A DNA stretch of 64,000 bases from a virus (Duplodnaviria; Heunggongvirae; Uroviricota; Caudoviricetes), in IMG/VR virus record IMGVR_UViG_3300037067_009442, positions 93,721-157,720 of that record; one strand, written 5' to 3'. The notes beneath the pieces were generated by a model that was not told the origin of the DNA, did no database searches, and worked only from the letters and a program-made list of their open reading frames with translations. Each line of letters begins with the position of its first letter. Position 1 is the first letter of the stretch. Below are positions 1,714-63,149 of the stretch, piece by piece. A program made the translations under genes and the position numbers.

Positions 1714-1773
1714 TCAGATCACTTCCTCCCGCTCGAAGCGGGTGGGAGTGACCCCATCAATAAGTATCAACAA
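1714..1773 (-). pseudogene. orphan C-terminal tag fragment (LLILIDGVTPTRFEREEVI*)
   Basis: Perfect TRFER tag with stop; in-frame TGA at 1788-1786 and no ATG. Confidence 0.55.
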
Positions 1774-1778
1774 TTTGG

Positions 1779-1807
1779 TTGAGAATCAGGACCCTCGTAC
1801 GTAGTAT
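1779..1807 (+). promoter_or_regulatory. sigma70-type promoter, leaderless
   Basis: TTGAGA-N17-TAGTAT, ATG 1813 five nt downstream. Confidence 0.8.
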
Positions 1808-1812
1808 AGGGT

Positions 1813-2157
1813 ATGGAAAGTAAGTTCCACTGTAAAAACCTCTCGGACAATTGGGTAGTGGCGGTAGATGAAGTATACATGGAAGTCCCTTCACAGGCTG
1901 AAGCCATGGTCATCTACGATATGATTGGGGAAATTGAAAACTCACCCTTCGGATCGGCTATCGTCCTGCCTCCACGGTACACTGCAGTCAATATCTTCAA
2001 GAAGGTAGCTACAGAGTCAATTCAATCCTTCTCGAAGAAGGTTAATCCTGACTATGTGGCCAAACACCTAGAACGAAACATTGCCCGCCGAAATCAGCCC
2101 TGTGAATCGGAACCTGAGCTTGGCTCCCCCTGGGGCTTGTTCAGCTCTTGCAACTGA
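1813..2157 (+). CDS. hypothetical protein
   Basis: ATG placed 5 nt after conserved promoter. Confidence 0.7.
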   Translation: MESKFHCKNLSDNWVVAVDEVYMEVPSQAEAMVIYDMIGEIENSPFGSAIVLPPRYTAVNIFKKVATESIQSFSKKVNPDYVAKHLERNIARRNQPCESEPELGSPWGLFSSCN

Positions 2158-2564
2158 GTACGACGGTTAGCGGGCGTTGGGATTAGGTCCTCACGACCCC
2201 TAAAGGTCTTCTTCACGTTGCTGATGGTAATGGTCCACGCCTTAGCCTGCTCATCACCGCCCAAACCAACCTTCAAGCGGGCCGACCATCCAAGACGAGG
2301 AACCCGAACCGGGTCGTAATTGAACCCAGGATCATCCATCGAGATGAAGGTGTGGTTCGGATGCTCAGAGGCGAACTTCTTCATGTCACCCCAGAGCTCG
2401 TGAATGTCTTCCCAGTCAGTCGGGATAGGTGTGCTGTCCAAAGTCGACCCCATCCTCAAAGGCTTCCCAGGCTCACTAATTGACCAGTCACCGGGTACTG
2501 TACTCATGGCTTCAAGTACACCCCCAGGCTCACTGATTAACCATTCCCTTTTTACTTTACCCAT
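2094..2564 (-). CDS. hypothetical protein
   Basis: 156-aa ORF overlapping the stop of upstream 2557..3978. Confidence 0.6.
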   Translation of the reverse strand: MGKVKREWLISEPGGVLEAMSTVPGDWSISEPGKPLRMGSTLDSTPIPTDWEDIHELWGDMKKFASEHPNHTFISMDDPGFNYDPVRVPRLGWSARLKVGLGGDEQAKAWTITISNVKKTFRGREDLIPTPANRRTQLQELNKPQGEPSSGSDSQG

Positions 2565-3978
2565 GGCAACTCGGAGTGGGGAGGGTTACTCGAGACCTCT
2601 CAAGGTATGCCGAATCCTCATCCCAGTTCAAAACCTTCCATCCGATGGCGAGGGCCCAGGCCTCAAACCACTGGTACCCCTCATGAGGTAACTTCACCGT
2701 CCCCGGAGCTACCTTACGATAAAGATCCAAAACAAAAGCCTCAGGAAGACGTATGCCGCGAAACTCAGGAGCTACCTTGATCGGATCATGAACCCGACCC
2801 TCCAATCGCTCTACTACCTCCCTGGCTACCGTCTGTGCCGTCACCGCTTCCGACTGAGAGAGCCCCGACCTCCGGAACTCTTGAACCGTTAGAAGGTCCT
2901 GTACCTCCTCCAGAACCTCCCGTGGTGATACCCCATGAGGATAGACCGGTACCGAAGAGGATGGCTCCTCCTGACCCAGAGGAGAGTCGTCTACCTCGTC
3001 CCTGACCATCAAGGAGGCTAGGAGCCCTACCATGTCCCGATGGTACTTCATCCACTCAGCCCATGGTCGATCCTGCCCACCTGTCTCCGATGGCTGCCAT
3101 AAGACATTCCGATAGGCACAAACACACGTCATCCATACTGCCTCCGCTACCTCATAGAGGAACCCGTCAAGCTCCCCCTCCTGAACCCCTCCCTCCAATG
3201 CCATCAACCAATGAGTTCCCCATCCCGTAGGTAGCTCGTCCTTCAACACGTCCCCTAAATGATGCTCCCGACCCATCGGATGAAAAGCCCCCGCCCTCCG
3301 TATCGTCTCACGTACCGCTTGTATCGTCTTCCCCTCACTATGAAGCTCAAGAACCTTCTTCCGATCTGTCATCCCCGAGGTATCTACCGCCGATTCCAAC
3401 ATCTCGTTGCAAATGGCCCAGTAATCCCGAACATACTCGTGGATGTCACCAAAGGTCTCTACCTCCCCCTTCCAACTCCGTGTCCACGTCCCCATCGCTA
3501 ACTCCCACACATCCGAACGTATGAAAGCTGCCCTCACATGAACCGCTCGATTACTCCCCGTCGGTAACTCCGATGGCTTCGTAGCTTCCAAAGTGACCCT
3601 CCTCAAATCACCCCCAAACCCAGGAACTAATAGCCGCTCCTCCCACTGAGCATCCCACATCCCAGAGAAATCCATCCCTCGATGTACCGCTATGTCGTGA
3701 CTCGAATTCGCCCCTATACCTAATTCATACATGTCGGCCTGAAGACCACTTACCCACAGCCGCTCCATCACCGTCCCCAACTCCAATAGCTTCACCCCAC
3801 CATAATCGTCATACTTTCCCCGAATTGGAAACGTTCGTGGAAGCCACTTCGACGTAAAGTCCATCTTACTCTCACCCAACGTGGCCCGAGGGTGCTCCAC
3901 TACCAAAAGTACCCGCACCAATTCACCCTCACCTATCGGTAACCCACTCAACATGCACGTCTGGTTGAAGCTGCCCAT
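2557..3978 (-). CDS. hypothetical phage protein
   Basis: 473-aa ORF; N-terminus MGSFNQTCMLSGLPI...YDDYG. Confidence 0.75.
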   Translation of the reverse strand: MGSFNQTCMLSGLPIGEGELVRVLLVVEHPRATLGESKMDFTSKWLPRTFPIRGKYDDYGGVKLLELGTVMERLWVSGLQADMYELGIGANSSHDIAVHRGMDFSGMWDAQWEERLLVPGFGGDLRRVTLEATKPSELPTGSNRAVHVRAAFIRSDVWELAMGTWTRSWKGEVETFGDIHEYVRDYWAICNEMLESAVDTSGMTDRKKVLELHSEGKTIQAVRETIRRAGAFHPMGREHHLGDVLKDELPTGWGTHWLMALEGGVQEGELDGFLYEVAEAVWMTCVCAYRNVLWQPSETGGQDRPWAEWMKYHRDMVGLLASLMVRDEVDDSPLGQEEPSSSVPVYPHGVSPREVLEEVQDLLTVQEFRRSGLSQSEAVTAQTVAREVVERLEGRVHDPIKVAPEFRGIRLPEAFVLDLYRKVAPGTVKLPHEGYQWFEAWALAIGWKVLNWDEDSAYLERSRVTLPTPSCHG

Positions 3979-7574: not shown

Positions 7575-7859
7575 ATGAAAAACAGAGTGTTCTGGGTCGA
7601 CAAGTTCAATCTTGCGTCTATTCAAGGTCGGGAACTTGATAGAATGGCCGACAAGTTGACGCAGCAGATCACCCTGAAGACTGGTGTCAGGAAGGGGTAT
7701 CAGGACCGACGGGGGATTGCCCAGTTACGGTCAAGGTTGGCCCATCTAGTCCGGAGGTCGCTCTACCTGAAGGGTAGGATGGTCTACTATGATGAGAGGA
7801 TCATAGCCTTGGAGAACCGGAGTAGGTTTGATCGGATTCTGAGGAGCCCGGTCATTTAG
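7575..7859 (+). CDS. hypothetical protein with TRFER-type C-terminal tag
   Basis: Ends SRFDRILRSPVI*. Confidence 0.65.
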   Translation: MKNRVFWVDKFNLASIQGRELDRMADKLTQQITLKTGVRKGYQDRRGIAQLRSRLAHLVRRSLYLKGRMVYYDERIIALENRSRFDRILRSPVI

Positions 7860-9333: not shown

Positions 9334-11017
9334 TGGGAAACCCTAGGCTCAAGTGGACCCTACCATCATCGCTCTGCCAACCCCCGATGCTTGTAGGGCT
9401 CTCGGGAGTATCTACGAAGAGGCTGAACTCAAGCTCAACAGTCCTGACTGCATCCCCTAGGTGATTGGACACTTGACAATGGACACCAAGGTCATTGAAA
9501 AGACCAGCCAAGCGAAGCAAGGTGGCGCTCATCCGATGGTCTTGAAGCCGAGGTGGGAGTCTACTACCTCCCTCAGCTAACCTTCGGTGCTCCTCAGGGG
9601 AGGCGAGTACAGCATCCTCGACCCCTAAGGTTGGGGATGCTGCCGTTATCTGAAGCCTCGTCTCATTACCAGCTGGTCCCACTATGGGCACAGAGCTCAG
9701 CATGAGATTAGTCTCTAATTGAAGATCTTCTTCCGCTGCCCTCTCTGGGGTGAAGTCCATGCGGAGCCCACCGTTCTCTTGGTACTCCCTCACGAGGGAG
9801 CTTCGGGTCCTGACAATTCCGTGAGCTAAGTACCAAGTGGCGTTCTCCCCTACTTGGTAGTGCATCCTCACTGCTTCTCTTTGGCTCATCATCTCGTCGT
9901 TTACTCTCACGAGTGATTCGACATGAGCTCCGTCCCCAAGCCGTTGAATTGCAGCTTGGAAGTTAGGATCCCCACTCAACTGCTGTAGTAGCCCTTGGGT
10001 TAGAGGGGAAGTAGTGACTTCTCGGAGGCGTTGGATCTCTTGAGCTAGTGCAGCTCGGGGTCCATGAAGTTGAGTGCTTGGGACTTGGTTACCAGGGGTT
10101 CCTGGAGCGGGGTGTTGCTCCTCAGTCCACCAAGGGTTGTTGCCGTTTGCAATCCTTTGGTTCATGGCATCTAGTGCAGTACGCTCAGCTTGGGCACCAC
10201 GCTCAGCCTCAATCCAATGAGGTAACCCGCTCTCAATCTCCTGCGTTAGGGTAGCTCGGAGATTGGCCACTGTCTCAGGATTAATTGTAATGCCCCGATC
10301 CCTCATTAGGTTCATGGTGGCAAGGGTACGAGCTTCGAGCTCAGCGTAGTCAACGTTGGGGAGGGATTCGGGTGTGTCTACATCTGGTGCTGACCTAGTA
10401 GACTCCTCAAACTGTTGCTGCAAATGCATCCGTACCCGTGTAATAATGGACTGGTCAACTTCAATGCCCCTCCCTCTTAGCTCATTCAAGTAAGCTTGAA
10501 CGTTCCGCTCGAGCTCGGCGGCGGTCTCACTAGGTAGTGTTTGACTTGTAGGAGGGGCATTAAGGATCTGCTGAAGGCGATCGAGAGCTGCATTTACACT
10601 AGGCTCTTGATTGAGGGCGCTGATAACAGGGTACCCTAAGCGAACCATATCTTCTATCGGCTGCCTCAAACCCCTTCTCTGGATCGCAGTTTCCCAAGGT
10701 CGGATACTCCATGCAAAGCCAGGAGGGAGGGGAGTGTTAGGGATAGGAGTCAGAGTCGCTAGGTACCCCCGAGCATAACGCTCAAGTTCTGATGAAGCAG
10801 GGCCCTGTCCTTGCCCTCGAGTATAGGCATTCCTCAGAAGAGCTGCGGACTCTGAAGGCGCAGAAAAGTCACCCACCTGAAGAGCTGCAGAAGGTGCGGG
10901 AGCATAGCATCGTCGGAGACGGGCAAGCTCAGGGCTGATCTCTTGGGAGATCCCAGGGGGCGCTTCCACGGGAGACGGTCGTAACCCTTCCCAGAACTCT
11001 TCAATGTCTTCCGGCAC
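9320..11017 (-). CDS. large helical hypothetical protein, acidic-W N-terminal family
   Basis: 565 aa; starts MPEDIEEFWE; GTG 10 nt after GGTGTA. Confidence 0.8.
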   Translation of the reverse strand: MPEDIEEFWEGLRPSPVEAPPGISQEISPELARLRRCYAPAPSAALQVGDFSAPSESAALLRNAYTRGQGQGPASSELERYARGYLATLTPIPNTPLPPGFAWSIRPWETAIQRRGLRQPIEDMVRLGYPVISALNQEPSVNAALDRLQQILNAPPTSQTLPSETAAELERNVQAYLNELRGRGIEVDQSIITRVRMHLQQQFEESTRSAPDVDTPESLPNVDYAELEARTLATMNLMRDRGITINPETVANLRATLTQEIESGLPHWIEAERGAQAERTALDAMNQRIANGNNPWWTEEQHPAPGTPGNQVPSTQLHGPRAALAQEIQRLREVTTSPLTQGLLQQLSGDPNFQAAIQRLGDGAHVESLVRVNDEMMSQREAVRMHYQVGENATWYLAHGIVRTRSSLVREYQENGGLRMDFTPERAAEEDLQLETNLMLSSVPIVGPAGNETRLQITAASPTLGVEDAVLASPEEHRRLAEGGSRLPPRLQDHRMSATLLRLAGLFNDLGVHCQVSNHLGDAVRTVELEFSLFVDTPESPTSIGGWQSDDGRVHLSLGFPNARR

Positions 11018-11318
11018 GTCGGGACACTACACCAAAAGGCTCCTCTGTGGTAGGCTCTTCCCCGTGACCACTTCGTGGGCTGAATCAAATTGCAGGGAAT
11101 GCATTCACAAGCCGCACCTTGTCAAGGTTATTGGGGAGTCCTCAGGGTTCTCCACGTGCATCAAGGGGATGCACGTTTACTATTGGTGGCCTTGGGACCG
11201 GTCTGATGTCCCCTTAGAAGTTGAGATAGCACTCCCTGAGGACCGCTCTTGCCCTCACAAGGAGAAGGAACCTCTCACCCGCTTCCAAAGGATCCTCCAA
11301 GAAGATGACAGCCCCTAA
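11004..11318 (+). CDS. four-Cys protein with TRFER tag
   Basis: CRECIH..C..C; ends LTRFQRILQEDDSP*; true start possibly GTG near 11063. Confidence 0.7.
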   Translation: MSSGTSGHYTKRLLCGRLFPVTTSWAESNCRECIHKPHLVKVIGESSGFSTCIKGMHVYYWWPWDRSDVPLEVEIALPEDRSCPHKEKEPLTRFQRILQEDDSP

Positions 11319-11520
11319 CAGCTGCGATGGATGCCTCCACATACCGGCACCCGGCTTTTACAAGGATGGCCTCACCCACTGCCTTGTTCATCGAGAGGTT
11401 CACTACAAGAAGGTGGCAGACGGTACTCACTTTTTTAATCGATCAAACTGGCCCTGTCCTTTCAAGGTAGAACCCAAGACAAGGTTCCAAAGGATCCTCG
11501 AAGAAGATGCCCCTCTGTGA
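11305..11520 (+). CDS. four-Cys protein with TRFER tag
   Basis: CDGCLH..C..C; ends KTRFQRILEEDAPL*. Confidence 0.75.
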   Translation: MTAPNSCDGCLHIPAPGFYKDGLTHCLVHREVHYKKVADGTHFFNRSNWPCPFKVEPKTRFQRILEEDAPL

Positions 11521-11959
11521 TACATGCCAATGGAGGCACCCCGAGAGGGAGAGTGAATACCAGGTCTCTAGGGCAGGCGGTCTTCAGTACCTGTGTTTAG
11601 CCCACCATCGTAGCCCCCTCCTAAGGGCTCTACCAGATGGGACCTACCCAGAGTTCAATCTCTGTGAGGACTATCAGAAGAAGAACTTTGCATGCGAAGC
11701 CTTCAAGTGCAGAGACTGTAGGTATGCCCCTGACTACCCCCTCAAGGGGAGTACCACTAGGACCCCTCAGGACCCTGCCCCTCTCTGGGGACTAGGCTAC
11801 ACGTGTGATCAAGGATATCATGTGAAGCCTACCTGGGATGCCCTACCTGATGGCTCCTACCTATCCACCCTCCTACGTTGGCCCCCTGTAGAGGATGAGT
11901 GCTTCTCCTACCTACCTGTGGAGAGGCTCACTCGCTTCGCTCGTATCTTGGCTGAGTAA
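11507..11959 (+). CDS. tandem four-Cys protein with TRFER tag
   Basis: Two CxxC-led units; ends LTRFARILAE*. Confidence 0.75.
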   Translation: MPLCDTCQWRHPERESEYQVSRAGGLQYLCLAHHRSPLLRALPDGTYPEFNLCEDYQKKNFACEAFKCRDCRYAPDYPLKGSTTRTPQDPAPLWGLGYTCDQGYHVKPTWDALPDGSYLSTLLRWPPVEDECFSYLPVERLTRFARILAE

Positions 11960-18010: not shown

Positions 18011-18433
18011 TTGATGCCTGACCTACCAATACCTGAGACAGAACGGGAAGCCATTCGAGCATGGGCACCTCGATGCTATGCCTGTGGGGAGATCGCTCGT
18101 TACCAAACGGTTACTCCTAAAGGGTCTACCGCTTGGGTTTTTACTAACGGGCTACTGAGTAAGATTGAGTTCATAGAAGGTGATGGGGAGTCTGCTGCGG
18201 ACTCTGCCCTTCGTGTAGCTTTGATCTGGTCTGGGTGGCTTAATTCCCTAGGTCTTTACCCTGGGATTGACCACCATAAGAGGCCTGAGATTCAGAACCA
18301 GTATTACTGTGAGAAGCACATTCACCCTGAAGCAAAGATCCTACCTTACTTGGACCTTCTCCTAACTCTGATTGGGGGAGAGCGTCCTGAGTGTCCGACT
18401 CGGTTTGAAAGGATGCTAGAAGAAGATGCCTAA
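18011..18433 (+). CDS. zinc-finger-like protein with TRFER tag
   Basis: CYACG...YYCEKH; ends CPTRFERMLEEDA*; paralogue of next gene. Confidence 0.8.
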   Translation: MMPDLPIPETEREAIRAWAPRCYACGEIARYQTVTPKGSTAWVFTNGLLSKIEFIEGDGESAADSALRVALIWSGWLNSLGLYPGIDHHKRPEIQNQYYCEKHIHPEAKILPYLDLLLTLIGGERPECPTRFERMLEEDA

Positions 18434-18839
18434 GACGAAACTAGAAGCCATTCGGGCTTGGGCCTCTCGATGCTACATTTGCGGGGATATAGCCACTTTC
18501 AGGTCTGCGAGTATCATACTTCAAGGTGATGAGTGGCTCTTTACCAATGGTGCGCTAAAGATGAGCGAGTTCATAGGGGGGAGTGAGGATCAGATCCCTA
18601 TCCTTGTGGCAGAGAGAGCTCAGCGTTGGTCTAGAGAACTAGAGGCTCTTGGTCTCCCCTTTGTGGTCTACTGGAATAAGATACCACTAGGTGGCTTCCG
18701 TTGGTACTACTGCGAGGAGCACAGGGATTCCTCGAGTGAAGCCTTGTATTACCGAGACCTGCTTCTACCCCCACCTCAAGTAGAAGCAGAGCATCCTAAG
18801 TGTCTGACCCGGTTTGAACGAATGCTCGAAGACGAGTAG
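18426..18839 (+). CDS. zinc-finger-like protein with TRFER tag
   Basis: CYICG...YYCEEH; ends CLTRFERMLEDE*. Confidence 0.8.
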   Translation: MPKTKLEAIRAWASRCYICGDIATFRSASIILQGDEWLFTNGALKMSEFIGGSEDQIPILVAERAQRWSRELEALGLPFVVYWNKIPLGGFRWYYCEEHRDSSSEALYYRDLLLPPPQVEAEHPKCLTRFERMLEDE

Positions 18840-48886: not shown

Positions 48887-49342
48887 TTGACTCGATGCAG
48901 GAGCTTGTGGCAAGCTCCCGATATGCCGTCTTTTGAGAATCCCTTAGATATGGTGTGCGCTGTTTTTCAGCACGCCCGTAAAACGGGTCACCACTTCGGG
49001 GTATTTCCAAAGCCTAAATGGGTAGGGGTTTGCTGTGAGGACTGTCTCGAGGATATTGCGGAGTCCCACAATAGTAACTACCTAGCTCCGGCATCTGGGA
49101 TGATCTATGTACCAGATACTCACTTCCTCCATCCTTACTTGGCGACTCCAGCAGGCTTAATCACCCTCTGTGATAGGTTGAACGAGGGCTCTAAGGAGGC
49201 TCTTTTACAGGGTTTCTCAAAGGGTGGGTTTGCTTACGCGGTCATGCAAATGCTACTCAACCGTGTAAGCTCCGAGGCTCTACCTAACTTGGATCTCCAC
49301 CAATTCGTCCCCACTCGCTTTGAGAGAGAAGACGTGATCTGA
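48887..49342 (+). CDS. hypothetical protein with TRFER tag
   Basis: Ends VPTRFEREDVI*. Confidence 0.75.
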   Translation: MTRCRSLWQAPDMPSFENPLDMVCAVFQHARKTGHHFGVFPKPKWVGVCCEDCLEDIAESHNSNYLAPASGMIYVPDTHFLHPYLATPAGLITLCDRLNEGSKEALLQGFSKGGFAYAVMQMLLNRVSSEALPNLDLHQFVPTRFEREDVI

Positions 49343-49659: not shown

Positions 49660-50004
49660 ATGGCCTGTCACTCAGTAGTATTCCCTAGGTTTCAGGAAGA
49701 CGTAGTTTCCAAAAAACGGACCTTGTATCACGAGCCTCTAGGGGAGACCGGGGGGCTCGAGGTTGGGGATAGGTTAATCCTAACGCCCCATGAGTGCTTC
49801 CCTAGAGGGGTTGCAACGGTGGTGACAGCAATAGACCGGGTGCGACTGAAGGAGCTTCCAGAGGCCGACCTAGAGAAGCTGGCAGTAGGTTCCCGGGAGG
49901 AGTACTTGTCCCGATGGGATGCAGCCTTCCCTCACGAATCTTCGTCTGAGGATCCTCAAGTATGGAGAATCGAGTTTCGGTATCTACGCCCTGATGAGTT
50001 CTGA
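49660..50004 (+). CDS. ASCH/PUA-like domain protein
   Basis: GD.L.L...V.AIDRVRL.EL..........W........VWRIEF. Confidence 0.5.
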   Translation: MACHSVVFPRFQEDVVSKKRTLYHEPLGETGGLEVGDRLILTPHECFPRGVATVVTAIDRVRLKELPEADLEKLAVGSREEYLSRWDAAFPHESSSEDPQVWRIEFRYLRPDEF

Positions 50005-50324
50005 TGCCCTACCATGAGTATGACACTGCCGAGAAGATGATTGATGACATGACTCATCACATCACCCTGGAGAGACACCTGATCTCTAGCGGTGTTCGAA
50101 TTCCGGAGAAGGCTGATAGGAGTCAGAGGCTGGTCGGATTCCATTGTACTGGATGTGAGCAAGCTTGGGCCATGCCCGCCTCTCATCTTGCTAGGGATCT
50201 TGAGGGTGAGTATGCCTACCTGCTGAAGGCTACCGGTCGAGGATACTTATTCAACGCCTTGAATGAACTAGCTAAAGTACCATCCCCAACCCGATTCGAG
50301 CGGATCCTTCTCGCCGATTGGTGA
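50004..50324 (+). CDS. hypothetical protein with TRFER tag
   Basis: Ends SPTRFERILLADW*. Confidence 0.7.
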   Translation: MPYHEYDTAEKMIDDMTHHITLERHLISSGVRIPEKADRSQRLVGFHCTGCEQAWAMPASHLARDLEGEYAYLLKATGRGYLFNALNELAKVPSPTRFERILLADW

Positions 50325-51107: not shown

Positions 51108-51590
51108 ATGCCAGACCCAATGGATCCAAACGAAAACCTTCGAGAGCAACGTGAAATAACCAAACGTCTTCTCGATGAAGATCTTGAAGGGGACGTTGAT
51201 TCGATAATGACCTTGAGCATCAGGCTTGCAGAGCTTGTTCAAGCTCTGGACGAGTGGATCTCCCATCAAGGGGAGCTGCCTAGAGACTGGTGGAATGAGG
51301 TACCTATCCAAGCCCTAAGGGCAAACCCTACAGACGGGTATAACTATGATGAGGTGTACAGGTTGATCCTCATCGAGTCGGGCCCTAATCGAATCCAACT
51401 TTGGAGGCTTCTCCGAAGTCTTCGTGACTACACCCTCCAAGACGTCCGCCGGATAACCGATGCCTTACCTTGGATCTATGGGTCTGAATTTGGTGGTGGC
51501 GCTGTGAATGAACTTCGAGCAATGTTCGAAGGAATCGGAGCGGTTGTTAGGGTAGAGTTGATGACTCAGACTCACAACCCTCTAGTGTAG
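51108..51590 (+). CDS. protein with C-terminal ribosomal L7/L12-CTD-like domain
   Basis: YRLILIESGPNRIQLWRLLRSLRDYTLQDVRRITDALP...LRAMFEGIGAVVRVE follows the bL12 CTD pattern. Confidence 0.6.
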   Translation: MPDPMDPNENLREQREITKRLLDEDLEGDVDSIMTLSIRLAELVQALDEWISHQGELPRDWWNEVPIQALRANPTDGYNYDEVYRLILIESGPNRIQLWRLLRSLRDYTLQDVRRITDALPWIYGSEFGGGAVNELRAMFEGIGAVVRVELMTQTHNPLV

Positions 51591-51870
51591 CTAAGATTCG
51601 TTCAAAGCGGGTGGCTATCACAGCCACTGGGTAATAAGAGCACCGGACTAAGCCCTCCCCTGGTAGTTGATGTCGATAGGGCAGTGCTTGGTAATGAGCT
51701 CCTACTCGAAACCAACCCACACTCAGGTTGTACCCTTTAGTACAAGGGTACACAACTTTTTCATCGATAGGTACGATGTTCACTTCCATCACTATGGCCC
51801 CCTTGAGGTGGTAGTTTTGAGGGCAGTGAGGGCAATCGTCACAGAGTGTTGTCACTGAGGATCCGTTCAA
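51547..51870 (-). CDS. four-Cys protein with TRFER tag
   Basis: CDDCPHCP..CTKG..CSYY; ATRFERIL plus extension. Confidence 0.7.
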   Translation of the reverse strand: MNGSSVTTLCDDCPHCPQNYHLKGAIVMEVNIVPIDEKVVYPCTKGYNLSVGWFRVGAHYQALPYRHQLPGEGLVRCSYYPVAVIATRFERILATLEGCESESSTLP

Positions 51871-52183
51871 AGCGGGTGGCTGGTGGTGAGTCTGTTTGTA
51901 CTATGTCTTTTCTCGGGCGGGAGAATTTTAGTACCCAAGGTCGTCCATTAGAGTGAACTTGGTCGAAGCAAGTGATCTCCCAGCTACCCGTGGGAAACTG
52001 TCGTTTCAGGAAGTAACTAACTTTCTCCAGGTAGTACTCAGGGACTCCGTACATCGACCCCTCTTGGAGTAAGCTTTGAATCCTTTCCCCAACCCCCGGG
52101 GGTGTTGGATGGATGTACTCAAAAACAGGGGGACCACCTTCTTGGAGAGTAAACCCGACCTCAAATGGTCCCCAGGAGGTCAA
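51839..52183 (-). CDS. hypothetical protein with TRFER tag
   Basis: Ends ATRFERILSDNTL*; WEITCFD similar to neighbour. Confidence 0.7.
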   Translation of the reverse strand: MTSWGPFEVGFTLQEGGPPVFEYIHPTPPGVGERIQSLLQEGSMYGVPEYYLEKVSYFLKRQFPTGSWEITCFDQVHSNGRPWVLKFSRPRKDIVQTDSPPATRFERILSDNTL

Positions 52184-52521
52184 ATGACTTCCTCCCGCTC
52201 GAATCGAGTAAGGTACTTAGGTTGAGTGACAGGCTTCTGTTTCCTAGGTGCCTTGGGCGGCTTTGTCAGATCAGGTTGAGTGAAGTTGAGGGTATAGTGG
52301 TAGCCAGCTACATCAACGCAAGTGATCTCAAAGTTCTCTTTTCGAATCCATGAGTCGAAGTACTGCTGGATTCGTAGCATATAACCCCTAGCACCCCTAT
52401 TAGGCCCAGCATAGTCAATTACATCCTGAAGCTGATTCTGCCTGCGGTAAGGGCGCCCCGCACTAGTAGCCGTTAGCTGGTGAGCTCCTGATTCCTCTAA
52501 GGTGATGACTACCTTAATCAT
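52180..52521 (-). CDS. hypothetical protein with TRFER tag
   Basis: Ends LTRFEREEVI*. Confidence 0.75.
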   Translation of the reverse strand: MIKVVITLEESGAHQLTATSAGRPYRRQNQLQDVIDYAGPNRGARGYMLRIQQYFDSWIRKENFEITCVDVAGYHYTLNFTQPDLTKPPKAPRKQKPVTQPKYLTRFEREEVI

Positions 52522-52775
52522 ATCACATCTTCTCTCTCAAACCGGGAAGGGCGGTGGCAGTTGTACTGAGTACAAATCCTACCTACGGGCCATACACGGA
52601 GAAGGTAAGGACCTTTGCCCTCGATTCGAGTGTACCATTGCCTGGTTTTCACCCCTAATCCGCAGCGAGTTAGTTGAACGTGGGTGAGGGAGTACTCGTC
52701 TGTATCACTACCCTCCACTTTTCGGTGAACGCAGGTGAGGCAGAACTGGGGATCTATCTTTGGGAGGTCTGCCAC
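52518..52775 (-). CDS. four-Cys protein with TRFER tag
   Basis: CLTCVH..CGLG..CTQY; ends PSRFEREDVI*. Confidence 0.75.
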   Translation of the reverse strand: MADLPKIDPQFCLTCVHRKVEGSDTDEYSLTHVQLTRCGLGVKTRQWYTRIEGKGPYLLRVWPVGRICTQYNCHRPSRFEREDVI

Positions 52776-53152
52776 TACTCAAGATCCTCTAGGATATGCT
52801 CGAATCGAGTAGGTCTAGTTCCGAGATACCTCCCGTAATTCTGATCCGGAAAGGGTGAGAGTTCGAAGAATCTCTCTAGTTCGGTCAGTACATTTGAAAC
52901 GCAGTCTAGGCATTCGGCGGAGACAACCCCCAGGGGTCCGAACTCGAATACTTGCTTGAGGGTTTGGTAGCACTTCCAAGCAAGGTCAACCTCTTCACTT
53001 GAACCAATAACGGAAGACGCATGCTCGATTTGCCAACATGCGTCTTCTATTAAATTCAGGGTATTCAGGGGCTGGGGCTGGGTGGTGTCAGAGGCATCTA
53101 CATAGCGGAGTGCCGTGTGGACGTCTACAGCCATGTCAGCAAAGGCGGTCAT
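52775..53152 (-). CDS. hypothetical protein with TRFER tag
   Basis: Ends RPTRFEHILEDLE*. Confidence 0.7.
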   Translation of the reverse strand: MTAFADMAVDVHTALRYVDASDTTQPQPLNTLNLIEDACWQIEHASSVIGSSEEVDLAWKCYQTLKQVFEFGPLGVVSAECLDCVSNVLTELERFFELSPFPDQNYGRYLGTRPTRFEHILEDLE

Positions 53153-56850: not shown

Positions 56851-57411
56851 GTGATGTCTAAGAAGAGGAAGATGGTCAGGGAGGAGTTTAGGGGTTGGGC
56901 CCTAAAGTACCAGAGCTTGGAAGAGGCTTGGGTTGCTTGTTCCGACGGCGGGATGTTGATTCGCTACCTACTCGAATTTGACTCCAATAGTAAAGCAGTT
57001 CATCAAGTATCCTACCGGGCCGCATATCGAGCAGTGACTAATGACCCCGACGTAGAGACTGATTTCGTGGATGCTCTGTGGGTCAAAGCCGGTTGGATGG
57101 AGGGTGGAGCGGAGCCCACAAAGTCATATGGCCATGACCGATCCATACTTGGTAGGTGTGTGAGGGAGTTGATGAGGTTAGACGGAGCTGCCTCGGAGTT
57201 AGTCATGTCGTTTGCAGCTCAAGCCCGCGGTGAGGTAGCATGTAAGTTACCAAATAAGGTTGACTTTAGAGGTGACGGCCCTGTCAACTCCTACCAAATG
57301 ATCTTTAGTGCTGCCTACAAGCGTGAGAGGCTGAGTCAAGCGAACGACATCCGAGAGCTACTACCCTTCCCCAAGATTCGAACTAGGTTCGAACGAGAGG
57401 ACGTCATCTAA
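56851..57411 (+). CDS. hypothetical protein with TRFER tag
   Basis: Ends IRTRFEREDVI*. Confidence 0.75.
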   Translation: MMSKKRKMVREEFRGWALKYQSLEEAWVACSDGGMLIRYLLEFDSNSKAVHQVSYRAAYRAVTNDPDVETDFVDALWVKAGWMEGGAEPTKSYGHDRSILGRCVRELMRLDGAASELVMSFAAQARGEVACKLPNKVDFRGDGPVNSYQMIFSAAYKRERLSQANDIRELLPFPKIRTRFEREDVI

Positions 57412-58355: not shown

Positions 58356-58592
58356 CTACTCGGAAGCTAAGATCTTTTCGAATCTTGTAGGTCTCGGACC
58401 GCGGTAATACCTCTCCTCAAAGGAGGGGCAAGTGGATGCATCTACTGAGTTGAGTAGTTGAGGGTGATCTAGATCCAGGAATAAAGAATGAATCTTCCAG
58501 CGGCGATGCCCCTTAGGACATTCTACTGGAGGCGGGGGCATCATGAAGATCTGAGCCCCCGGAAGATGCTTGCAGTTACTACAGATGCTCAT
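58356..58592 (-). CDS. four-Cys protein with TRFER tag
   Basis: MSICSNCKH..CPKG..CPSF; ends RPTRFEKILASE*. Confidence 0.75.
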   Translation of the reverse strand: MSICSNCKHLPGAQIFMMPPPPVECPKGHRRWKIHSLFLDLDHPQLLNSVDASTCPSFEERYYRGPRPTRFEKILASE

Positions 58593-58791
58593 CGGATAGG
58601 ATCTTTTCGAACCTTGTAGGTCGGTCCCCACTATAAAGGTACTTCCCGCAGAGCTCAATACCCTGAGGGTAGGTATGTAATCCCTTCGTTTGGTCAAAGG
58701 TAACCAAGGTTGAGTGACCCACCCAACAGGAAGTACCATGTGTACTTAGGGGGTCCTTGTACTCGCAGTCGTCACAGCAAACTTGAGTCAT
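58579..58791 (-). CDS. four-Cys protein with TRFER tag
   Basis: CDDCEY..CWVG..CGKY; ends RPTRFEKILSDEHL*. Confidence 0.75.
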   Translation of the reverse strand: MTQVCCDDCEYKDPLSTHGTSCWVGHSTLVTFDQTKGLHTYPQGIELCGKYLYSGDRPTRFEKILSDEHL

Positions 58792-59147
58792 TACACGACG
58801 TCCTCACGCTCGAAGCGAGACAATCGAGGGGAGTCAATATTCTCGATTATTGAAGGATCATTCGTTTCTAATCCGAACCTCAGACAGTAGGTAGCCCCGT
58901 CTAACTTGACGAACCTCAGTACAAGATGAGGTAAGGCCCACCTAAGTGACAAAGCGGTGATGGAGTTGATCAGGTAGTCATCTGGAGTAAGTCGAACAGG
59001 TCCTCGGTACCAGTTTGCTACTAGCTCTCGAAGAACACCCTCGACGACCCCAGGGTCTAAACTCCCTGGGGTTTCGTCTACCTCTACCGATACCAAAGGG
59101 GATCCGTCTTCACTCCCACCCTCAGCGATCCAAATGTAGTAGGTCAA
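58791..59147 (-). CDS. hypothetical protein with TRFER tag
   Basis: Ends LSRFEREDVV*. Confidence 0.7.
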   Translation of the reverse strand: MTYYIWIAEGGSEDGSPLVSVEVDETPGSLDPGVVEGVLRELVANWYRGPVRLTPDDYLINSITALSLRWALPHLVLRFVKLDGATYCLRFGLETNDPSIIENIDSPRLSRFEREDVV

Positions 59148-59374
59148 AACTCGTCTTCCAAAACTCGTTCAAAGCGAGTAGGTCTAGGTCCGCAGTAAGC
59201 ATAGTCTGAGCACGTTGAGGAAGACTGCCCCTCATTGAAGAGGTTTTGGTTAGCGTGGAGTCCAGAATCCAAGAATCTTACAAGAAAGTACCCGCGATTA
59301 CAGGCTAACTCCCCTGTCCTAGTCTCTAGGCTCCACTTGCAGTCATCACAGAAGTCCATCAGGGTCGGTAGCAT
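59144..59374 (-). CDS. four-Cys protein with TRFER tag (start uncertain)
   Basis: CDDCKW..CNRG..CSDY; ends RPTRFERVLEDEF*. Confidence 0.7.
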   Translation of the reverse strand: MLPTLMDFCDDCKWSLETRTGELACNRGYFLVRFLDSGLHANQNLFNEGQSSSTCSDYAYCGPRPTRFERVLEDEF

Positions 59375-59462
59375 ACCCCAACTTTGATGGATTAGGGTTA
59401 TTGTTTGACTTGAATCGCAATTCGGCCCCACAACCAATAGGTTTTGGTGTAAGGGTTTCCCC

Positions 59463-59780
59463 ATGGAAGAGGTGCTTGCGGTACTGTCTCAGGCGTCCAA
59501 GCTGAAGGTCGCCACCAATCAGATCAAGTACTATTCCGATCGGATCAAGTCTAGGAAATATCCCGCTGACATTGTGAGCGACATGAAGCACCTAGCGATA
59601 TGGAGGAGCTCATTAGGTGCTTTCAAAACGAATAAGTCCCTGTCAGAGGAAGCTGGGGATGAGCTTCTGCGATACTTGTTTTTCTCGATGACAGAGAAGA
59701 AGCTAATCACGTCTGAGGAGGAGTATCGCTTGAACGAGCTTTACCCAGACCCCGACTGTATCCATTTTTCTTCAGGGTAA
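59463..59780 (+). CDS. hypothetical protein
   Basis: ATG 11 nt after GGTGTA. Confidence 0.65.
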   Translation: MEEVLAVLSQASKLKVATNQIKYYSDRIKSRKYPADIVSDMKHLAIWRSSLGAFKTNKSLSEEAGDELLRYLFFSMTEKKLITSEEEYRLNELYPDPDCIHFSSG

Positions 59781-59784
59781 CCCG

Positions 59785-60069
59785 ATGCCAACTAAGGAAG
59801 AGATAACTGAGAGGCAACTAAAGCACTTCCGTAAGACAGGGCATGTCCCGAAACTTGTCCGGGACAGGGCCCTCAATCACCTTGGAGTGGCTTGCTCTAC
59901 TTGCTCCAATAACACTGATTGGGAAGTGATCTCGGTTGAACAAGCTCTTGCCCTTCACCCTAGTGGTGAGGTTGTTCAGATTTACTTGGAGGTGCTAGAT
60001 AAACTGAAGCCGCCTCCGGAAGTGGTACCTGACTCGCCTACTCGGTTCGAGCGAGAGGACGTCATCTGA
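59785..60069 (+). CDS. hypothetical protein with TRFER tag
   Basis: Ends SPTRFEREDVI*. Confidence 0.75.
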   Translation: MPTKEEITERQLKHFRKTGHVPKLVRDRALNHLGVACSTCSNNTDWEVISVEQALALHPSGEVVQIYLEVLDKLKPPPEVVPDSPTRFEREDVI

Positions 60070-61181: not shown

Positions 61182-61716
61182 GAACTATGCCCTCCAACGT
61201 AGACCGATTTCTCATTCGTAGTATCACCTTCGCCCGGAACCCGGCTTGTCGGGATACTAATGGTGAGATCGAACATTGGAAAATTGAGGTCTGGGGTCTG
61301 ACCAAAAAAACTAAGGAGCCCTTTGAGGTTACTGGGGAGTTGGAGTTTGTAACTATTCCTGAGAGGTGGGACGGGTTCACTCCGATCCCAGCACACCAGA
61401 TAGAGATCCCTGGTGTTCGATTGAGTACTACAGCCCTTCGAACCTTTCAGGAAGCTGCTGAGTTAGCCAATACTCGAGCCCTCTGTGTTAGTGGTTACAT
61501 GGGCCCTGACTTCCCACATATACTGAGTATAGTAAGAGACTACCGAGTCAACCCTACTTCAGGTGACATAAGGAGCAGTCGTGTTGGGCACTAAGTTCAT
61601 GAAAAACCAGAGGAAGATCTGTAACCGGCGGTACCGGAAGGTAGCTCACCGCTTCGGGCAAGTCTACCAGCCCCGCCGAATTCGTAGAGAGTGGGCAGAT
61701 TCCCAAGAAGTATCGG

Positions 61717-61745
61717 TTGAGATCCGAGAGTCTCGTACGTAGTAG
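61717..61745 (+). promoter_or_regulatory. sigma70-type promoter, leaderless
   Basis: TTGAGA-N17-TAGTAG; ATG 61751. Confidence 0.7.
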
Positions 61746-61750
61746 TTACT

Positions 61751-62176
61751 ATGACCTACGTAACTCCGTCGACAGAAGCTGGTTGGAAAGCCTTAGCTCG
61801 GAAGCTCGGATACGGAACTAACGTCGCAGCCCTGAAGAAGGACTCTCAGGAGACAGATGCGATTCTCAGTGAGGTTGAGACTGAAGAGAGACTCCTCAGT
61901 CAGATTGAGGTTATTGAGGAGGAAGCCCAGGATAAAATGGGAGTTCTTGCTCTCGAGTTCCGTACCAAGGTTCTCATTCCCTTCTGTCGTAGGTACAACC
62001 TAACCTTCAAGGCAGGCATGGGGAGCTATGTCTTTGTCGACTCTAAGGGGGAAGTTGATTACGGTGATGAAGAGCGCCCCTGGATCAAAACCATGAGTGA
62101 GATGTTGGACAACTCGGCGATGAGTCAGTCCTTTGGCTCTTGGTTCGAGGACATCACGATTGAAGACCTGGTGTAG
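61751..62176 (+). CDS. hypothetical protein, paralogue of 47076..47405
   Basis: Shared C-terminal domain; both have own promoter. Confidence 0.75.
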   Translation: MTYVTPSTEAGWKALARKLGYGTNVAALKKDSQETDAILSEVETEERLLSQIEVIEEEAQDKMGVLALEFRTKVLIPFCRRYNLTFKAGMGSYVFVDSKGEVDYGDEERPWIKTMSEMLDNSAMSQSFGSWFEDITIEDLV

Positions 62177-62583
62177 TAGGTAATACATGTCAGCCCCATG
62201 GGATCCTAGCTGGCAGTGGGAGTTTGCTCCCGATATTCGTTGAAGGGCTTTATGCCATCAGAACCAGATGACCTAAGGGATACCGGCTGTCTATTCACCT
62301 TGGTAGAGTTCGAGGATAAGGCTCAAGAGTTTGTCCACCTAGTCTCGAAGTTTACCTCCGATATTGAATGGGAGGTTCGAGAGGGGGTCCCTGAAGGTTT
62401 CCTCCCTGTCTTGGACTGCAAGGAGACTCCCAATTGGTCTGTAGTGGCTTGGCCAAAAGGGCGCCCCGGGTACATGCAGGCCTATATGGATCTCCTTAGT
62501 ACCTTAGGTTACCTGCAAGAGTTGATTGAGCTCCCTTCAGTCAAGTTCCCTCTTGAGGTAGTTCCTTGTTGAGAGGTTAGGGT

Positions 62584-62883
62584 ATGAAACTTCACCCCGA
62601 AACTAACAGCTCAGGTCAAATTCAAGGATTCTCCTTCTTCTGCCCTGGGTGCGGTCACCTACACATTTTCTACACGACAGGCCCTCTCATTTGGAGCTTT
62701 GATGGTAACCATGAGAGCCCAACGTTCTCTCCTTCTCTCCTGAATACTTGTGACAACCACCCTGACTCTAAGCAGCGTCGGTGCCACCTGAACCTAACAG
62801 CGGGGAAGTTGGTGTTTCATGGGGACTGCAGCCATGATAAAGCAGGTCAAGTTCTCGAGCTCTTGGATCGGCTACCTGAATGA
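62584..62883 (+). CDS. DUF6527-like protein
   Basis: FFCPGCG..H...WSFDG..ESPTFSPSLL...CH...G...F..DCSH...GQ. Confidence 0.8.
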   Translation: MKLHPETNSSGQIQGFSFFCPGCGHLHIFYTTGPLIWSFDGNHESPTFSPSLLNTCDNHPDSKQRRCHLNLTAGKLVFHGDCSHDKAGQVLELLDRLPE

Positions 62884-63149
62884 TCTTCTGTAGTAATTGC
62901 AAATGGGCCCCAGCAATGCCCGAAGTAGGGAATGGAAAGCCTTACTCAGGGAAGTGCTCTCAGGGTTTTGACGTGAGTTACCGGAACATTATCAGGGACT
63001 TGAGAAGAAAACCAAAGTACCGACTGGTCAGCTTTGGGAGTACATGTCACCTTCGGAAGTCCAAGCTTTCTGAGTTTACTCGGTTCGACAGGCTTCTTGC
63101 GGATGACTCCTATTTATTCGGAGAGGGCTCTAAGTCTAGAAAAGACTAG
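62880..63149 (+). CDS. four-Cys protein with TRFER-type tag
   Basis: CSNCKW..CSQG..CH; FTRFDRLLADDSYLFG. Confidence 0.7.
   Translation: MIFCSNCKWAPAMPEVGNGKPYSGKCSQGFDVSYRNIIRDLRRKPKYRLVSFGSTCHLRKSKLSEFTRFDRLLADDSYLFGEGSKSRKD

What the first reader, a model, noticed from the sequence alone, without database searches (positions are those of the whole stretch)
1714..63149. Shared C-terminal peptide tag (P)TRFER on about 32 unrelated proteins: candidate undescribed sorting or docking system
Seen: ORFs ending near 1714(-), 7859, 11318, 11520, 11959, 18433, 18839, 24482, 24677, 24960, 31517, 31909, 33383, 35902(-), 37590(-), 40974, 41287, 41558, 49342, 50324, 51547(-), 51839(-), 52180(-), 52518(-), 52775(-), 57411, 58356(-), 58579(-), 58791(-), 59144(-), 60069 and 63149 carry [PLK][TS]RF[EDQ][RK] at or near the C-terminus. 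Their bodies belong to several unrelated families. Codons vary freely (ACC CGC TTC GAG CGG; ACA AGA TTT GAG CGT; ACT AGG TTC GAA CGA), so conservation is at protein level, not a DNA repeat. The motif is absent from the recognisable enzymes (uxs, radical SAM, ATP-grasp, nucleases). Inference: a short amphipathic helix read by one common partner, e.g. capsid or compartment packaging, export, a hub protein, or proteolysis. Known analogues are encapsulin cargo-loading peptides, the SSB C-terminal tail and ssrA-type degrons. I do not recognise this motif from any described system.
Basis: partly seen in the sequence, partly recalled or inferred. Interest (0 to 1): 0.93.

Follow-up and report, generated by a model that had tools for sequence, protein, structure and literature searches.

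The report
Shared C-terminal tag in huge phage
About a fifth of the genes in this stretch of a huge uncultured phage end in the same ten-residue peptide (PTRFER...), attached by a floppy linker to otherwise unrelated small proteins. It behaves like an undescribed address label, and what reads it is still unknown.

Summary
All 32 listed ORFs end in the motif: 29 match RF[EDQ][RK], and three carry the variants TRFARIL, TRFTRIL and TRFEHIL. In the whole 228.6-kb contig the motif lies within 25 residues of a stop 57 times and elsewhere 4 times. Among my called proteins, 48 are tagged against 0.5 expected from shuffles.

The protein bodies are mostly unrelated ORFans. Codons vary, including CGN and AGR for Arg. 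In 53 orthologous pairs the six-residue core is 91% identical, against 49% for the bodies and 39% for the linker.

The tag is confined to one small clade of roughly 0.5-Mb phages. It also occurs in low-GC mobile islands of a single 8-Mb deltaproteobacterial MAG, the probable host. In the complete relative the tag avoids the structural and replication modules.

The best candidates are the phage's own proteostasis genes:
- a clade-linked J-domain protein encoded in this window, whose central domain diverges in the one lineage whose tag reads RYQREPVI;
- a phage ClpX, found in the complete relative and beside the J-protein gene in another tag-bearing lineage.

The one complex prediction gave no answer.

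This scan already noted the same tag in the neighbouring window of this genome (e1-1697685). I found no paper describing it. I class it as a new variant of a known kind: a short docking, targeting or degron peptide.

The parts
1714..1785 (-). Tag copy in a 23-codon open frame (...GVTPTRFEREEVI*); probably a gene remnant
7575..7859 (+). Tagged ORF, ...NRSRFDRILRSPVI* (hybrid IL + VI end)
11004..11318 (+). Tagged ORF, ...LTRFQRILQEDDSP*
11305..11520 (+). Tagged ORF, ...KTRFQRILEEDAPL*
11507..11959 (+). Cys-rich ORF with variant tag ...LTRFARILAE*
18011..18433 (+). Tagged ORF, ...PTRFERMLEEDA*
18426..18839 (+). Tagged ORF, ...LTRFERMLEDE* (paralogue of the previous one)
24312..24482 (+). Tagged ORF, ...LTRFERVLRGQVI*
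24486..24677 (+). Tagged ORF, ...PTRFERILRGEVI*
24679..24960 (+). Tagged ORF, PTRFERIL followed by a 20-residue tail
25659..26984 (+). Untagged J-domain protein (HPD intact) with a family-specific central domain; candidate tag reader, unproven
31284..31517 (+). Tagged ORF, ...PTRFEREPVI*
31520..31909 (+). Tagged ORF, ...PSRFERDPVI*
33030..33383 (+). Tagged ORF, ...PTRFERILEG*
35902..36342 (-). Tagged ORF, ...PTRFEREEVI*
37590..37910 (-). ORF with variant tag ...TTRFTRILQGLV*
40414..40974 (+). Tagged ORF, ...PTRFERIVDDSL*
40946..41287 (+). Tagged Cys-rich ORF, ...STRFERILRDDDAL*
41271..41558 (+). Tagged ORF, ...PNRFDKILRGDDYLFGLE*
48887..49342 (+). Tagged ORF, ...PTRFEREDVI*
50004..50324 (+). 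Tagged ORF, ...PTRFERILLADW*
51547..51870 (-). Tagged ORF, ATRFERIL followed by a 16-residue tail
51839..52183 (-). Tagged ORF, ...ATRFERILSDNTL*
52180..52521 (-). Tagged ORF, ...LTRFEREEVI*
52518..52775 (-). Tagged ORF, ...PSRFEREDVI*
52775..53152 (-). ORF with variant tag ...PTRFEHILEDLE*
56851..57411 (+). Tagged ORF, ...RTRFEREDVI*
58356..58739 (-). Tagged Cys-rich ORF, ...PTRFEKILASE* (the true start is probably downstream of the listed one)
58579..58791 (-). Tagged ORF, ...PTRFEKILSDEHL*
58791..59147 (-). Tagged ORF, ...LSRFEREDVV*
59144..59464 (-). Tagged ORF, ...PTRFERVLEDEF*
59785..60069 (+). Tagged ORF, ...PPPEVVPDSPTRFEREDVI*; its tail was the partner in the complex job
62880..63149 (+). 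Tagged ORF, FTRFDRLL followed by an 18-residue tail
63007..63180 (+).

Best explanation
The peptide is a portable C-terminal short linear motif. A poorly conserved Pro/Glu-rich linker leads into a 10-14-residue tail. The tail starts [R/P]-P-T-R-F-E-R and then ends either E-[DEP]-V-[IV]-COOH, always exactly four residues, or [IV]-L-x-x-acidic.

It has been appended to at least 11% of the proteins of one clade of roughly 0.5-Mb phages, and to about 32 of roughly 140 genes in this window. It also sits on small ORFs in phage-like islands of the probable deltaproteobacterial host.

Shown here: the tag is modular, locked to the chain end, and much more strongly conserved than the proteins that carry it. 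It marks fast-evolving accessory genes, not structural or core replication genes.

Inferred: one common partner reads it and so handles these unlike proteins as one class. My most likely reader is the phage's own proteostasis set. One possibility is the J-domain protein of this window, which would hand tagged proteins, or whatever they hold, to host DnaK. The other is the phage ClpX seen in the complete relative. It has a zinc-finger N-domain, a GYVG pore loop and an MGF loop that could dock host ClpP, and could use the tail as a tether or a degron. Either route would give timed removal or remodelling of early and accessory proteins.

For: Position lock and excess:
- 57 terminal against 4 internal copies.
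- 48 tagged proteins against 0.5 expected from shuffles.
- 68 of 144 tags end exactly 4 residues after RFER.

Selection:
- Tag core identity 0.91, against 0.49 for bodies and 0.39 for the linker, in 53 orthologous pairs. In the 28 most divergent pairs the figures are 0.89, 0.33 and 0.27.
- Synonymous codons are used freely.

Modularity:
- Bodies are unrelated.
- Homologues occur with and without the tag, and the two end classes can swap between orthologues.
- One island protein carries two tags in tandem.

Exposure: the tail is modelled as coil after a folded body, and the linker is rich in Pro and Glu.

Distribution:
- The complete relative G001 has 50 DNA matches against 0 for the control pattern, nearly all in its first 320 kb.
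- None fall in its block carrying the prohead protease, portal, terminase, clamp loader, UvsX-like recombinase and RNR.
- The tag was found in only one clade of phage contigs and one bacterial MAG, within mobile islands.

J-domain protein:
- The HPD motif is intact, and G0 and G1 are 70% identical against a median of 50%.
- It is present in the tag-bearing records G000, G001 and G002, and on the contigs L109, L177 and L178. It is absent from the tagless 424-kb phage G307.
- In the contig whose tags read [TN]RYQREPVI*, the N-terminus and J-domain are 84-91% identical to this genome's, but the central domain is only 31-34% identical.

ClpX:
- G001 encodes a ClpX with zf-C4_ClpX, AAA_2, GYVG and MGF.
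- In L178, a contig of another huge phage that carries a J-domain homologue, ClpX, a 434-aa gene and the J homologue form one tight same-strand cluster. That contig carries tags, including ASRFERILL* on a KaiC-like protein.
- G307 has neither gene.
Against: - No binding has been shown.
- No ClpX was found in this genome's 228 kb, which CheckV rates 45% complete, so its presence here is unknown.
- J-family homologues in three other huge-phage contigs lie upstream of SNF2/DnaB/PolA genes, with no tags in the 7-21 kb read. The family's ancestral role may therefore be replication, as with lambda P-DnaB release by DnaK/DnaJ (own knowledge).
- The co-variation of tag dialect with the J central domain rests on a single contig with 2-3 tags.
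- G307 shares only 46 of G001's 753 genes, so most genes fit the same presence/absence pattern.
- The tail resembles neither ssrA (LAA-COOH) nor the SspB XB peptide (LRVVK) (own knowledge).
- The host islands carry tagged genes without any of the phage candidates.
Confidence: 0.6

Rival explanations
1. Virion-loading signal. The tail docks tagged proteins to the inside of the procapsid (shell, scaffold or portal), like encapsulin cargo peptides or the T4 capsid-targeting sequence. The proteins would then be packaged and injected. The prohead protease might cut after the Glu of R-F-E.
For: The architecture (folded body, flexible linker, short C-terminal peptide) is that of encapsulin cargo (own knowledge). 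G001 encodes a prohead protease homologue, and T4-type proteases cut after Glu (own knowledge). Giant phages such as SPN3US package many ejection proteins (abstracts of PMC5694885 and PMC10052503). The earlier scan note e1-1697685 chose this as the closest analogue.
Against: In G001 no tagged gene lies in the head, tail and replication block. Tags sit among small, fast-evolving accessory genes. Tagged bodies show no charge bias like the basic T4 internal proteins. Fifty or more cargo species would be unprecedented. Weak fold hits of one tagged family to HK97 capsids (Z<=4.1) are below noise.
Confidence: 0.13
2. Mimicry of, or docking on, a host hub. The reader would be a protein of the deltaproteobacterial host, for example DnaK itself, ClpX, the sliding clamp or RNA polymerase. 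The phage and the host's mobile islands would both use the tail to plug their effectors into it.
For: Small islands in the host MAG carry tagged ORFs but none of the phage candidate readers. These islands include a VapE-like primase island and an integrase island, with GC about 0.51-0.54 against about 0.58-0.62 for their flanks. A few tagged bodies are DNA-related: an HU-like protein and two RecA/KaiC-like proteins.
Against: No host chromosomal (non-island) protein with the tail was seen. None of 300 other genomes of the host's order has it. The islands may work only during infection by the phage, as satellites do. Nothing identifies a host reader.
Confidence: 0.15
3. Processing or ligation site. 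A conserved phage peptidase recognises T-R-F-E-R and removes the short tail, or transfers the protein to an acceptor in a sortase-like way. Candidates are the papain-family C1 enzyme G0_0358 and the HExxH protein G0_0417.
For: The C1 peptidase is 75% identical between G0 and G1. It has the QGxxGSC, GGH and NSW motifs and no recognisable signal peptide by inspection. Papain-family enzymes prefer a bulky hydrophobic residue such as Phe at P2 (own knowledge). The invariant core lies N-terminal to a variable short tail, as in LPXTG-type signals (own knowledge).
Against: The residues after the core are also conserved, as two defined classes, which is unexpected for a mere leaving group. No acceptor or partner is evident. 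C1 peptidases are widespread and were not shown to track the tag. The peptidase is absent from the fragments G002 and G003, which is uninformative.
Confidence: 0.07
4. Recognition element for a modifying enzyme. This would resemble a RiPP-like follower peptide for an ATP-grasp or radical-SAM enzyme (compare the microviridin leader PFFARFL), or a site of phosphorylation or ADP-ribosylation on T or R.
For: F-E-R-I-L loosely resembles F-A-R-F-L (own knowledge). The genome encodes macro, ADP-ribosylglycohydrolase and radical-SAM-like proteins.
Against: No ATP-grasp_4 match was found in any of the phage genomes. The radical-SAM-like ORF is sub-threshold, and the tagless G307 also has a radical SAM enzyme. 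Tagged genes are scattered, not clustered with one enzyme.
Confidence: 0.04

Closest known systems
SspB C-terminal ClpX-binding (XB) peptide docking on the ClpX N-terminal zinc-binding domain; more broadly ClpX C-terminal recognition signals (ssrA, MuA) (own knowledge)
   Same: A folded domain, a long flexible linker and a short peptide at the very C-terminus, used to tether a protein to an AAA+ unfoldase. A ClpX with a zinc finger, GYVG and an IGF-like MGF loop is encoded by the complete tag-bearing relative and by the tag-bearing L178 contig.
   Different: The sequence differs: TRFER... is neither LRVVK nor LAA. The tag sits on 50 or more unrelated proteins per genome, not on one adaptor. 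No ClpX has been seen yet in this genome's partial contig. Binding is untested.
Encapsulin cargo-loading peptides, and the T4 capsid-targeting sequence of internal proteins IPI-III and Alt
   Same: A short, transferable peptide on unrelated proteins that addresses them to one HK97-fold shell. Encapsulin peptides are C-terminal and follow a flexible linker.
   Different: The T4 signal is N-terminal and is cleaved. Encapsulin cargo genes sit beside the shell gene. Here the tagged genes lie far from the head module, and the consensus is unrelated.
Phage-encoded J-domain protein Rki of the T4-related phage RB43 (PMC3486835), and the DnaJ-domain co-chaperones noted as sporadic in jumbo phages (PMC7824862)
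   Same: A phage J-domain protein with an intact HPD motif is presumed to recruit host DnaK. No phage Hsp70 was found.
   Different: In the literature read here, no client tag or client-binding domain is described for those proteins. The protein in this window has a roughly 250-residue central domain that defines a family of 44 clusters and matched no known fold in the searches run.
C-terminal peptide ligands of PDZ and TPR domains (such as the Hsp70/Hsp90 EEVD-COOH tail) and the SSB C-terminal tip DDDIPF (own knowledge)
   Same: Recognition depends on a free chain end carrying acidic plus hydrophobic residues. The E-D-V-I-COOH class has a fixed length of four residues.
   Different: The invariant part here is the upstream T-R-F-E-R. 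The second class ends in a variable acidic tail. No PDZ or TPR reader was looked for systematically.

Membership tests
T4-type capsid targeting sequence (CTS) | Located at the N-terminus of the cargo protein | tested here: not met
   The motif is C-terminal in 57 of 61 occurrences.
T4-type capsid targeting sequence (CTS) | Carried by proteins found inside the head and removed by the prohead protease | not testable with these tools
   No proteomics is available. G001 has a prohead protease homologue, but tagged genes lie outside the head module.
Encapsulin cargo-loading peptide | C-terminal peptide after a flexible linker | tested here: met
   Pro/Glu-rich linker with low conservation (0.39); the tail is modelled as coil.
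Encapsulin cargo-loading peptide | Cargo gene adjacent to, or fused with, the shell gene | tested here: not met
   Tagged genes are scattered over the accessory half of the genome. None lies in the G001 block holding the portal, protease and terminase.
ClpX adaptor tether (SspB XB-like) or ClpX degron | A ClpX with an N-terminal zinc-binding domain is available to read the tail | tested here: inconclusive
   Found in the complete relative G001 (zf-C4_ClpX 35.2 bits, AAA_2 86.4 bits, GYVG, MGF) and in L178. Not found in this genome's 45%-complete contig. Host ClpX was not examined.
ClpX adaptor tether (SspB XB-like) or ClpX degron | Sequence like LRVVK (XB), or like LAA-COOH or RRKKAI-COOH (degrons) | tested here: not met
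   The consensus is PTRFER followed by EDVI or ILxxD.
ClpX adaptor tether (SspB XB-like) or ClpX degron | Physical binding to ClpX, or ClpXP-dependent turnover | not testable with these tools
   Needs biochemistry.
Sortase/exosortase-type C-terminal sorting signals (LPXTG, PEP-CTERM and similar) | The motif is followed by a hydrophobic membrane helix and a basic tail | tested here: not met
   Only 4-12 mostly acidic residues follow the motif. TM-like stretches are rare in tagged proteins, 7 of 144.
RiPP-type recognition sequence with a cognate ATP-grasp or radical-SAM maturase | The maturase gene is present and linked to the tagged genes | tested here: not met
   No PF13535 match. The radical-SAM-like ORF is sub-threshold, and a radical SAM enzyme is also present in tagless G307.
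SSB C-terminal tip | An acidic run ending in I-P-F on an OB-fold ssDNA-binding protein | tested here: not met
   The sequence differs, and the carriers are unrelated ORFans.

The most novel reading that the evidence does not exclude
The tail is a client code for a virus-encoded proteostasis hub. In this reading, a family of huge phages labels more than 50 fast-evolving effector or adaptor proteins per genome with one C-terminal peptide. The phage's own J-domain protein (central domain) and/or its own ClpX (zinc-finger domain) reads that peptide. The phage can then direct host DnaK or ClpP to fold, remodel or clear this whole class on schedule. Satellite-like islands in the host would have copied the label to plug into the same hub.
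Probability: 0.2. Interest if true: 0.85.

Novelty: new variant of a known kind. Interest (0 to 1): 0.7.

Why it matters
Short address peptides are known for single pathways, such as ssrA, the SspB tether, encapsulin cargo and T4 internal proteins. A single label on a tenth or more of a virus's proteome, kept nearly invariant while the labelled proteins diverge beyond recognition, has not been described.

The label gives a handle on the large set of unannotated genes in huge phages. It sorts about 50 ORFans per genome into one functional class, and it offers a ten-residue bait for finding the machine that handles them.

The tag also links this phage clade to a probable host, one deltaproteobacterial MAG, and to satellite-like islands in that host.

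Tried and rejected
- Complex prediction of the full-length J-domain protein (alignment A3) with the tagged tail (alignment A4 of 77 tails): scores 0.00, 0.33 and 0.00 against a mark of 0.32, and the controls were not run. The tool's verdict was 'no answer', so it counts neither way.
- Fold searches of the J-protein model (pLDDT 73) found only the J-domain (Tim14, Z 9.2). The central domain gave only weak matches, Z about 4-4.5.
- A fold search of one tagged family (model pLDDT 63) gave only sub-noise hits, Z<=4.1, curiously to HK97 capsids.
- Pfam found nothing on 10 large tagged proteins of this genome, or on 7 of 10 more from relatives. Three ESM Atlas look-ups gave no usable lead.
- The Cdc48-D1-like AAA ATPase G0_0109 lies in a dense, conserved cluster of tagged genes in G1-G3. 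I ranked it lower because its N-domain is poorly conserved between G0 and G1, and an orthologue exists in the tagless 424-kb phage G307.
- G307 was fetched as an outgroup. It shares too few genes (46 of 753) for presence/absence to discriminate between candidates, and it has no C-terminal tag of its own.
- A link to stop-codon readthrough, prompted by the suppressor tRNA noted earlier, was not supported. Tagged and untagged genes use the same stop codons (chi-square p=0.87).
- Tagged bodies show no bias in charge, Cys content or CxxC pairs.
- The phage ABC genes are an importer-type set (binding protein with OmpA, permease, ATPase), not an exporter.
- A phmmer search of a 24-residue tail against PDB sequences found nothing.
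- A word-index protein search with a 40-residue tail found only the protein's own near copy.
- A scan of IMG/VR for the RYQREPVI dialect gave only chance hits.
- Single-protein related-loci runs found nothing.
- The records behind L178 and L181 could not be scanned whole.

Full report
**What the window is.** The window is bases 93721-157720 of a single 228,619-bp viral contig with 51% GC. CheckV rates the contig 45% complete. My own dicodon-based gene caller gives 427 genes. Those I could recognise are accessory and metabolic: a UDP-sugar dehydratase/epimerase, a GIY-YIG nuclease, DUF4419, a J-domain protein, macro, NUDIX, ADP-ribosylglycohydrolase, DNA methyltransferases, peptide deformylase and an importer-type ABC set. 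No head genes were found among the proteins I scanned.

**Checking the observation.** RF[EDQ][RK] occurs 4-20 residues before a stop at 29 of the 32 listed ORF ends. The other three ends carry the one-residue variants TRFARIL, TRFTRIL and TRFEHIL. There is one extra copy, ending at 63180 in another frame, and the copy at 1714(-) is a 23-codon fragment.

Genome-wide, 57 copies lie within 25 residues of a stop and 4 lie elsewhere. In called proteins 48 are tagged, against a mean of 0.5 (maximum 3) in 200 residue shuffles. Only 1 internal copy occurs against 2.5 expected.

The 35 exact TRFER copies use 26 different 15-mers and both arginine codon families (see also the matched strings). The conservation is therefore in the peptide, not in the DNA. 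TTT and ACT are commoner in the tag than in the genome, a minor unexplained bias.

**Anatomy.** I aligned 144 tags from four genomes. R and F are invariant by the way the motif was defined. T precedes in 127 of 144 and P before it in 97 of 144. E follows in 116 and R in 138.

Two endings follow the core:
- E-[DEP]-V-[IV], always exactly four residues (57-68 tags).
- [IV]-L followed by an acidic tail of 2-8 residues (about 66 tags).

Hybrids such as TRFERILRGEVI* exist. The 12 residues upstream are rich in Pro and Glu. T-x-x-E is a helix capping-box pattern (own knowledge), which fits a short helix for the IL class. The fixed length of the EDVI class instead suggests that the free carboxylate is read.

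An AlphaFold model of one tagged family has a folded body and models the last 22 or so residues as coil.

**Carriers.** With the tag removed, 34 of 48 bodies have no BLAST relative in the genome at E<=1e-3, and the rest form families of two or three. Pfam finds nothing on the ten largest.

In relatives three carriers are recognisable:
- an HU-like protein (PF00216, 32.2 bits);
- a RecA/KaiC-like P-loop protein, sub-threshold;
- a second KaiC-like protein (PF06745, 36.6 bits).

Tagged proteins are small (median 114-139 aa) and show no bias in charge, Cys content or TM-like stretches.

**Selection and modularity.** In 53 reciprocal-best pairs in which both members are tagged, the six-residue core is 91% identical, the bodies 49% and the 20-residue linker 39%. 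In the 28 most divergent pairs the figures are 89%, 33% and 27%.

Orthologues can switch ending class in 2 of 53 pairs, and can carry weakened forms such as TRFARIL, DRFHREEVI or TRLERVL. The same body occurs with and without the tag.

**Distribution.**
- A back-translated TRFEREDVI-stop pattern finds 17 stretches on 8 IMG/VR contigs.
- The largest, G001, is a complete 512,571-bp genome with terminal repeats. It holds 50 TRFER DNA matches against 0 for the reversed control.
- My gene calls give 53 of 753 genes tagged in G001, 29 of 263 in G002 and 14 of 131 in G003.
- In 241 million metagenome records the pattern hits 31 stretches from five sample series.
- In 185,579 species genomes a slightly wider pattern, with about two chance hits expected by my own arithmetic, hits only one genome. 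This is an 8-Mb MAG labelled uncultured delta proteobacterium.

In that MAG the tagged small ORFs sit at four or more loci, with GC about 0.51-0.54 against about 0.58-0.62 for their flanks. They lie next to a VapE-like primase gene and an integrase gene, within a real chromosome that also carries YebC, ArgJ and GH53. None of 300 other genomes of its order has the pattern.

This MAG is the probable host lineage, and the islands look like satellites or prophage remnants drawn from the same gene pool.

**Where the tag is not.** In G001 the tags lie almost wholly in the first 320 kb. The block from about 290 to 470 kb holds the prohead protease, portal, large terminase, tail fibres, clamp loader, UvsX-like recombinase and RNR. 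It has no tagged gene. This fits accessory or early proteins better than virion proteins, though timing was not measured.

The window encodes a J-domain protein at 25659-26984, with the HPD motif intact. G0 and G1 are 70% identical, against a median of 50% for 131 orthologues.

- It is present in G000 (plus a paralogue), G001 and G002, and on the tag-bearing contigs L109, L177 and L178. It is absent from the tagless complete phage G307.
- An exhaustive HMMER search finds 44 clusters with its central domain. The ten I tested all have a J-domain ahead of it.
- In contig L109 the neighbouring genes are 72-83% identical to this genome's, and the J-protein's N-terminus and J-domain are 84-91% identical. 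Its central domain (residues 117-365) is only 31-34% identical. The tags on that contig read NRYQREPVI* and TRYQREPVI*.

That is the pattern expected if the central domain reads the tag. However, it rests on one contig and two or three tags.

Against this reading, three other family members lie just upstream of SNF2/DnaB/PolA genes, with no tags in the 7-21 kb read. The family may therefore serve replication.

The central domain matched no known fold in the searches run.

The complete relative G001 encodes a ClpX. Its features are:
- an N-terminal C4 zinc finger;
- an intein inside the Walker A motif;
- a GYVG pore loop;
- an MGF loop at the position of the ClpP-docking IGF loop (the position is from my own knowledge).

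No phage ClpP or Hsp70 was found. On L178, a contig of another huge phage, ClpX, a 434-aa gene and the J homologue form one tight same-strand cluster. That contig carries tags. G307 has no ClpX. This genome's partial contig has none either, which is uninformative.

ClpX is the textbook reader of C-terminal peptides, both as degrons and as adaptor tethers on its zinc-finger domain (own knowledge).

These are a Cdc48-D1-like AAA ATPase, a highly conserved papain-family peptidase and an HExxH protein. The AAA ATPase is embedded in a dense tagged cluster in G1-G3, but it has a poorly conserved N-domain and an orthologue in tagless G307.

**Verdict.** The general reading, an address tag read by one partner, is well supported by anatomy and selection but is not proven. 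The partner remains open.

I put the phage proteostasis pair (J-protein, ClpX) first, at about 0.35 together. A host hub is at about 0.15, capsid loading at about 0.13, and a processing or ligation site at about 0.07.

No paper in the searched library mentions the motif, and none of those listed describes a shared C-terminal peptide on huge-phage proteins.
- the probable host and its islands;
- the variant tag dialect;
- the ortholog-based selection figures;
- the exclusion of the tag from the structural and replication block;
- the two proteostasis candidates.

Noticed in passing
L001:9848-10159 (+) in this genome; L035:19157-19465 (-) and L038:6839-7135 (+) in G001: A second, rarer shared ending. 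Two families of conserved helical proteins of about 100 aa (67-85% identical between genomes) all end in K-x-L-R-P-P-G-R-stop. In G1-G3 one of them sits directly after the AAA ATPase gene.
   Followed up: partly
L040:17074-19446 (-) in G001: A phage-encoded ClpX of 791 aa with an intein (Hint domain) inserted in the Walker A motif (GPSG|...|TGKT). It has a GYVG pore loop and an MGF loop. No phage ClpP was found.
   Followed up: partly
L006:18757-19566 (+) and L009:8917-9546 (-) in this genome: Two highly conserved putative peptidases (75% identical between G0 and G1). One is a papain-family C1 enzyme with Cys, His and Asn motifs and no recognisable signal peptide by inspection. The other is a 210-aa protein with an HEFVH motif and no Pfam match.
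   Followed up: partly
window 62880-63180: Two tag copies lie in different frames within 40 bases of each other: TRFDRLLADD... ending at 63149 and TRFERILEDED* ending at 63180. This looks like a frameshifted or duplicated gene end. The copy at 1714(-) is likewise a remnant.
   Followed up: no
L067:561-1694 (-) = host MAG contig C48: A 377-aa island protein next to an integrase gene carries both tag classes in tandem (...FERILSDD, about 20 aa, then TRFEREDVI*).
   Followed up: no
L180, L181 and L182 (other huge-phage contigs): Members of the same J-domain-plus-central-domain family lie in a conserved order just upstream of SNF2 helicase, DnaB (with an intein) and PolA genes. This suggests a replication-linked role for the family.
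   Followed up: partly
L001:3620-6790 in this genome: An importer-type ABC set in a phage: a substrate-binding protein fused to an OmpA domain (524 aa), a permease (261 aa) and an ATPase (267 aa), 60-71% identical to the set in G001.
   Followed up: no
tag codons throughout this genome: Within TRFER the codons TTT (66% against 33% genome-wide) and ACT (69% against 39%) are over-used, although 26 of 35 copies differ in DNA. This may reflect shared ancestry of tags or a translational preference near the stop.
   Followed up: no
window 45502-45861 (+) and 23242-24306 (+): A cREC_REC receiver domain protein (PF20274, E=2e-25) that is 70% identical to its G001 counterpart, and a strong DUF4419 match (E=9e-78). 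Both are untagged.
   Followed up: no
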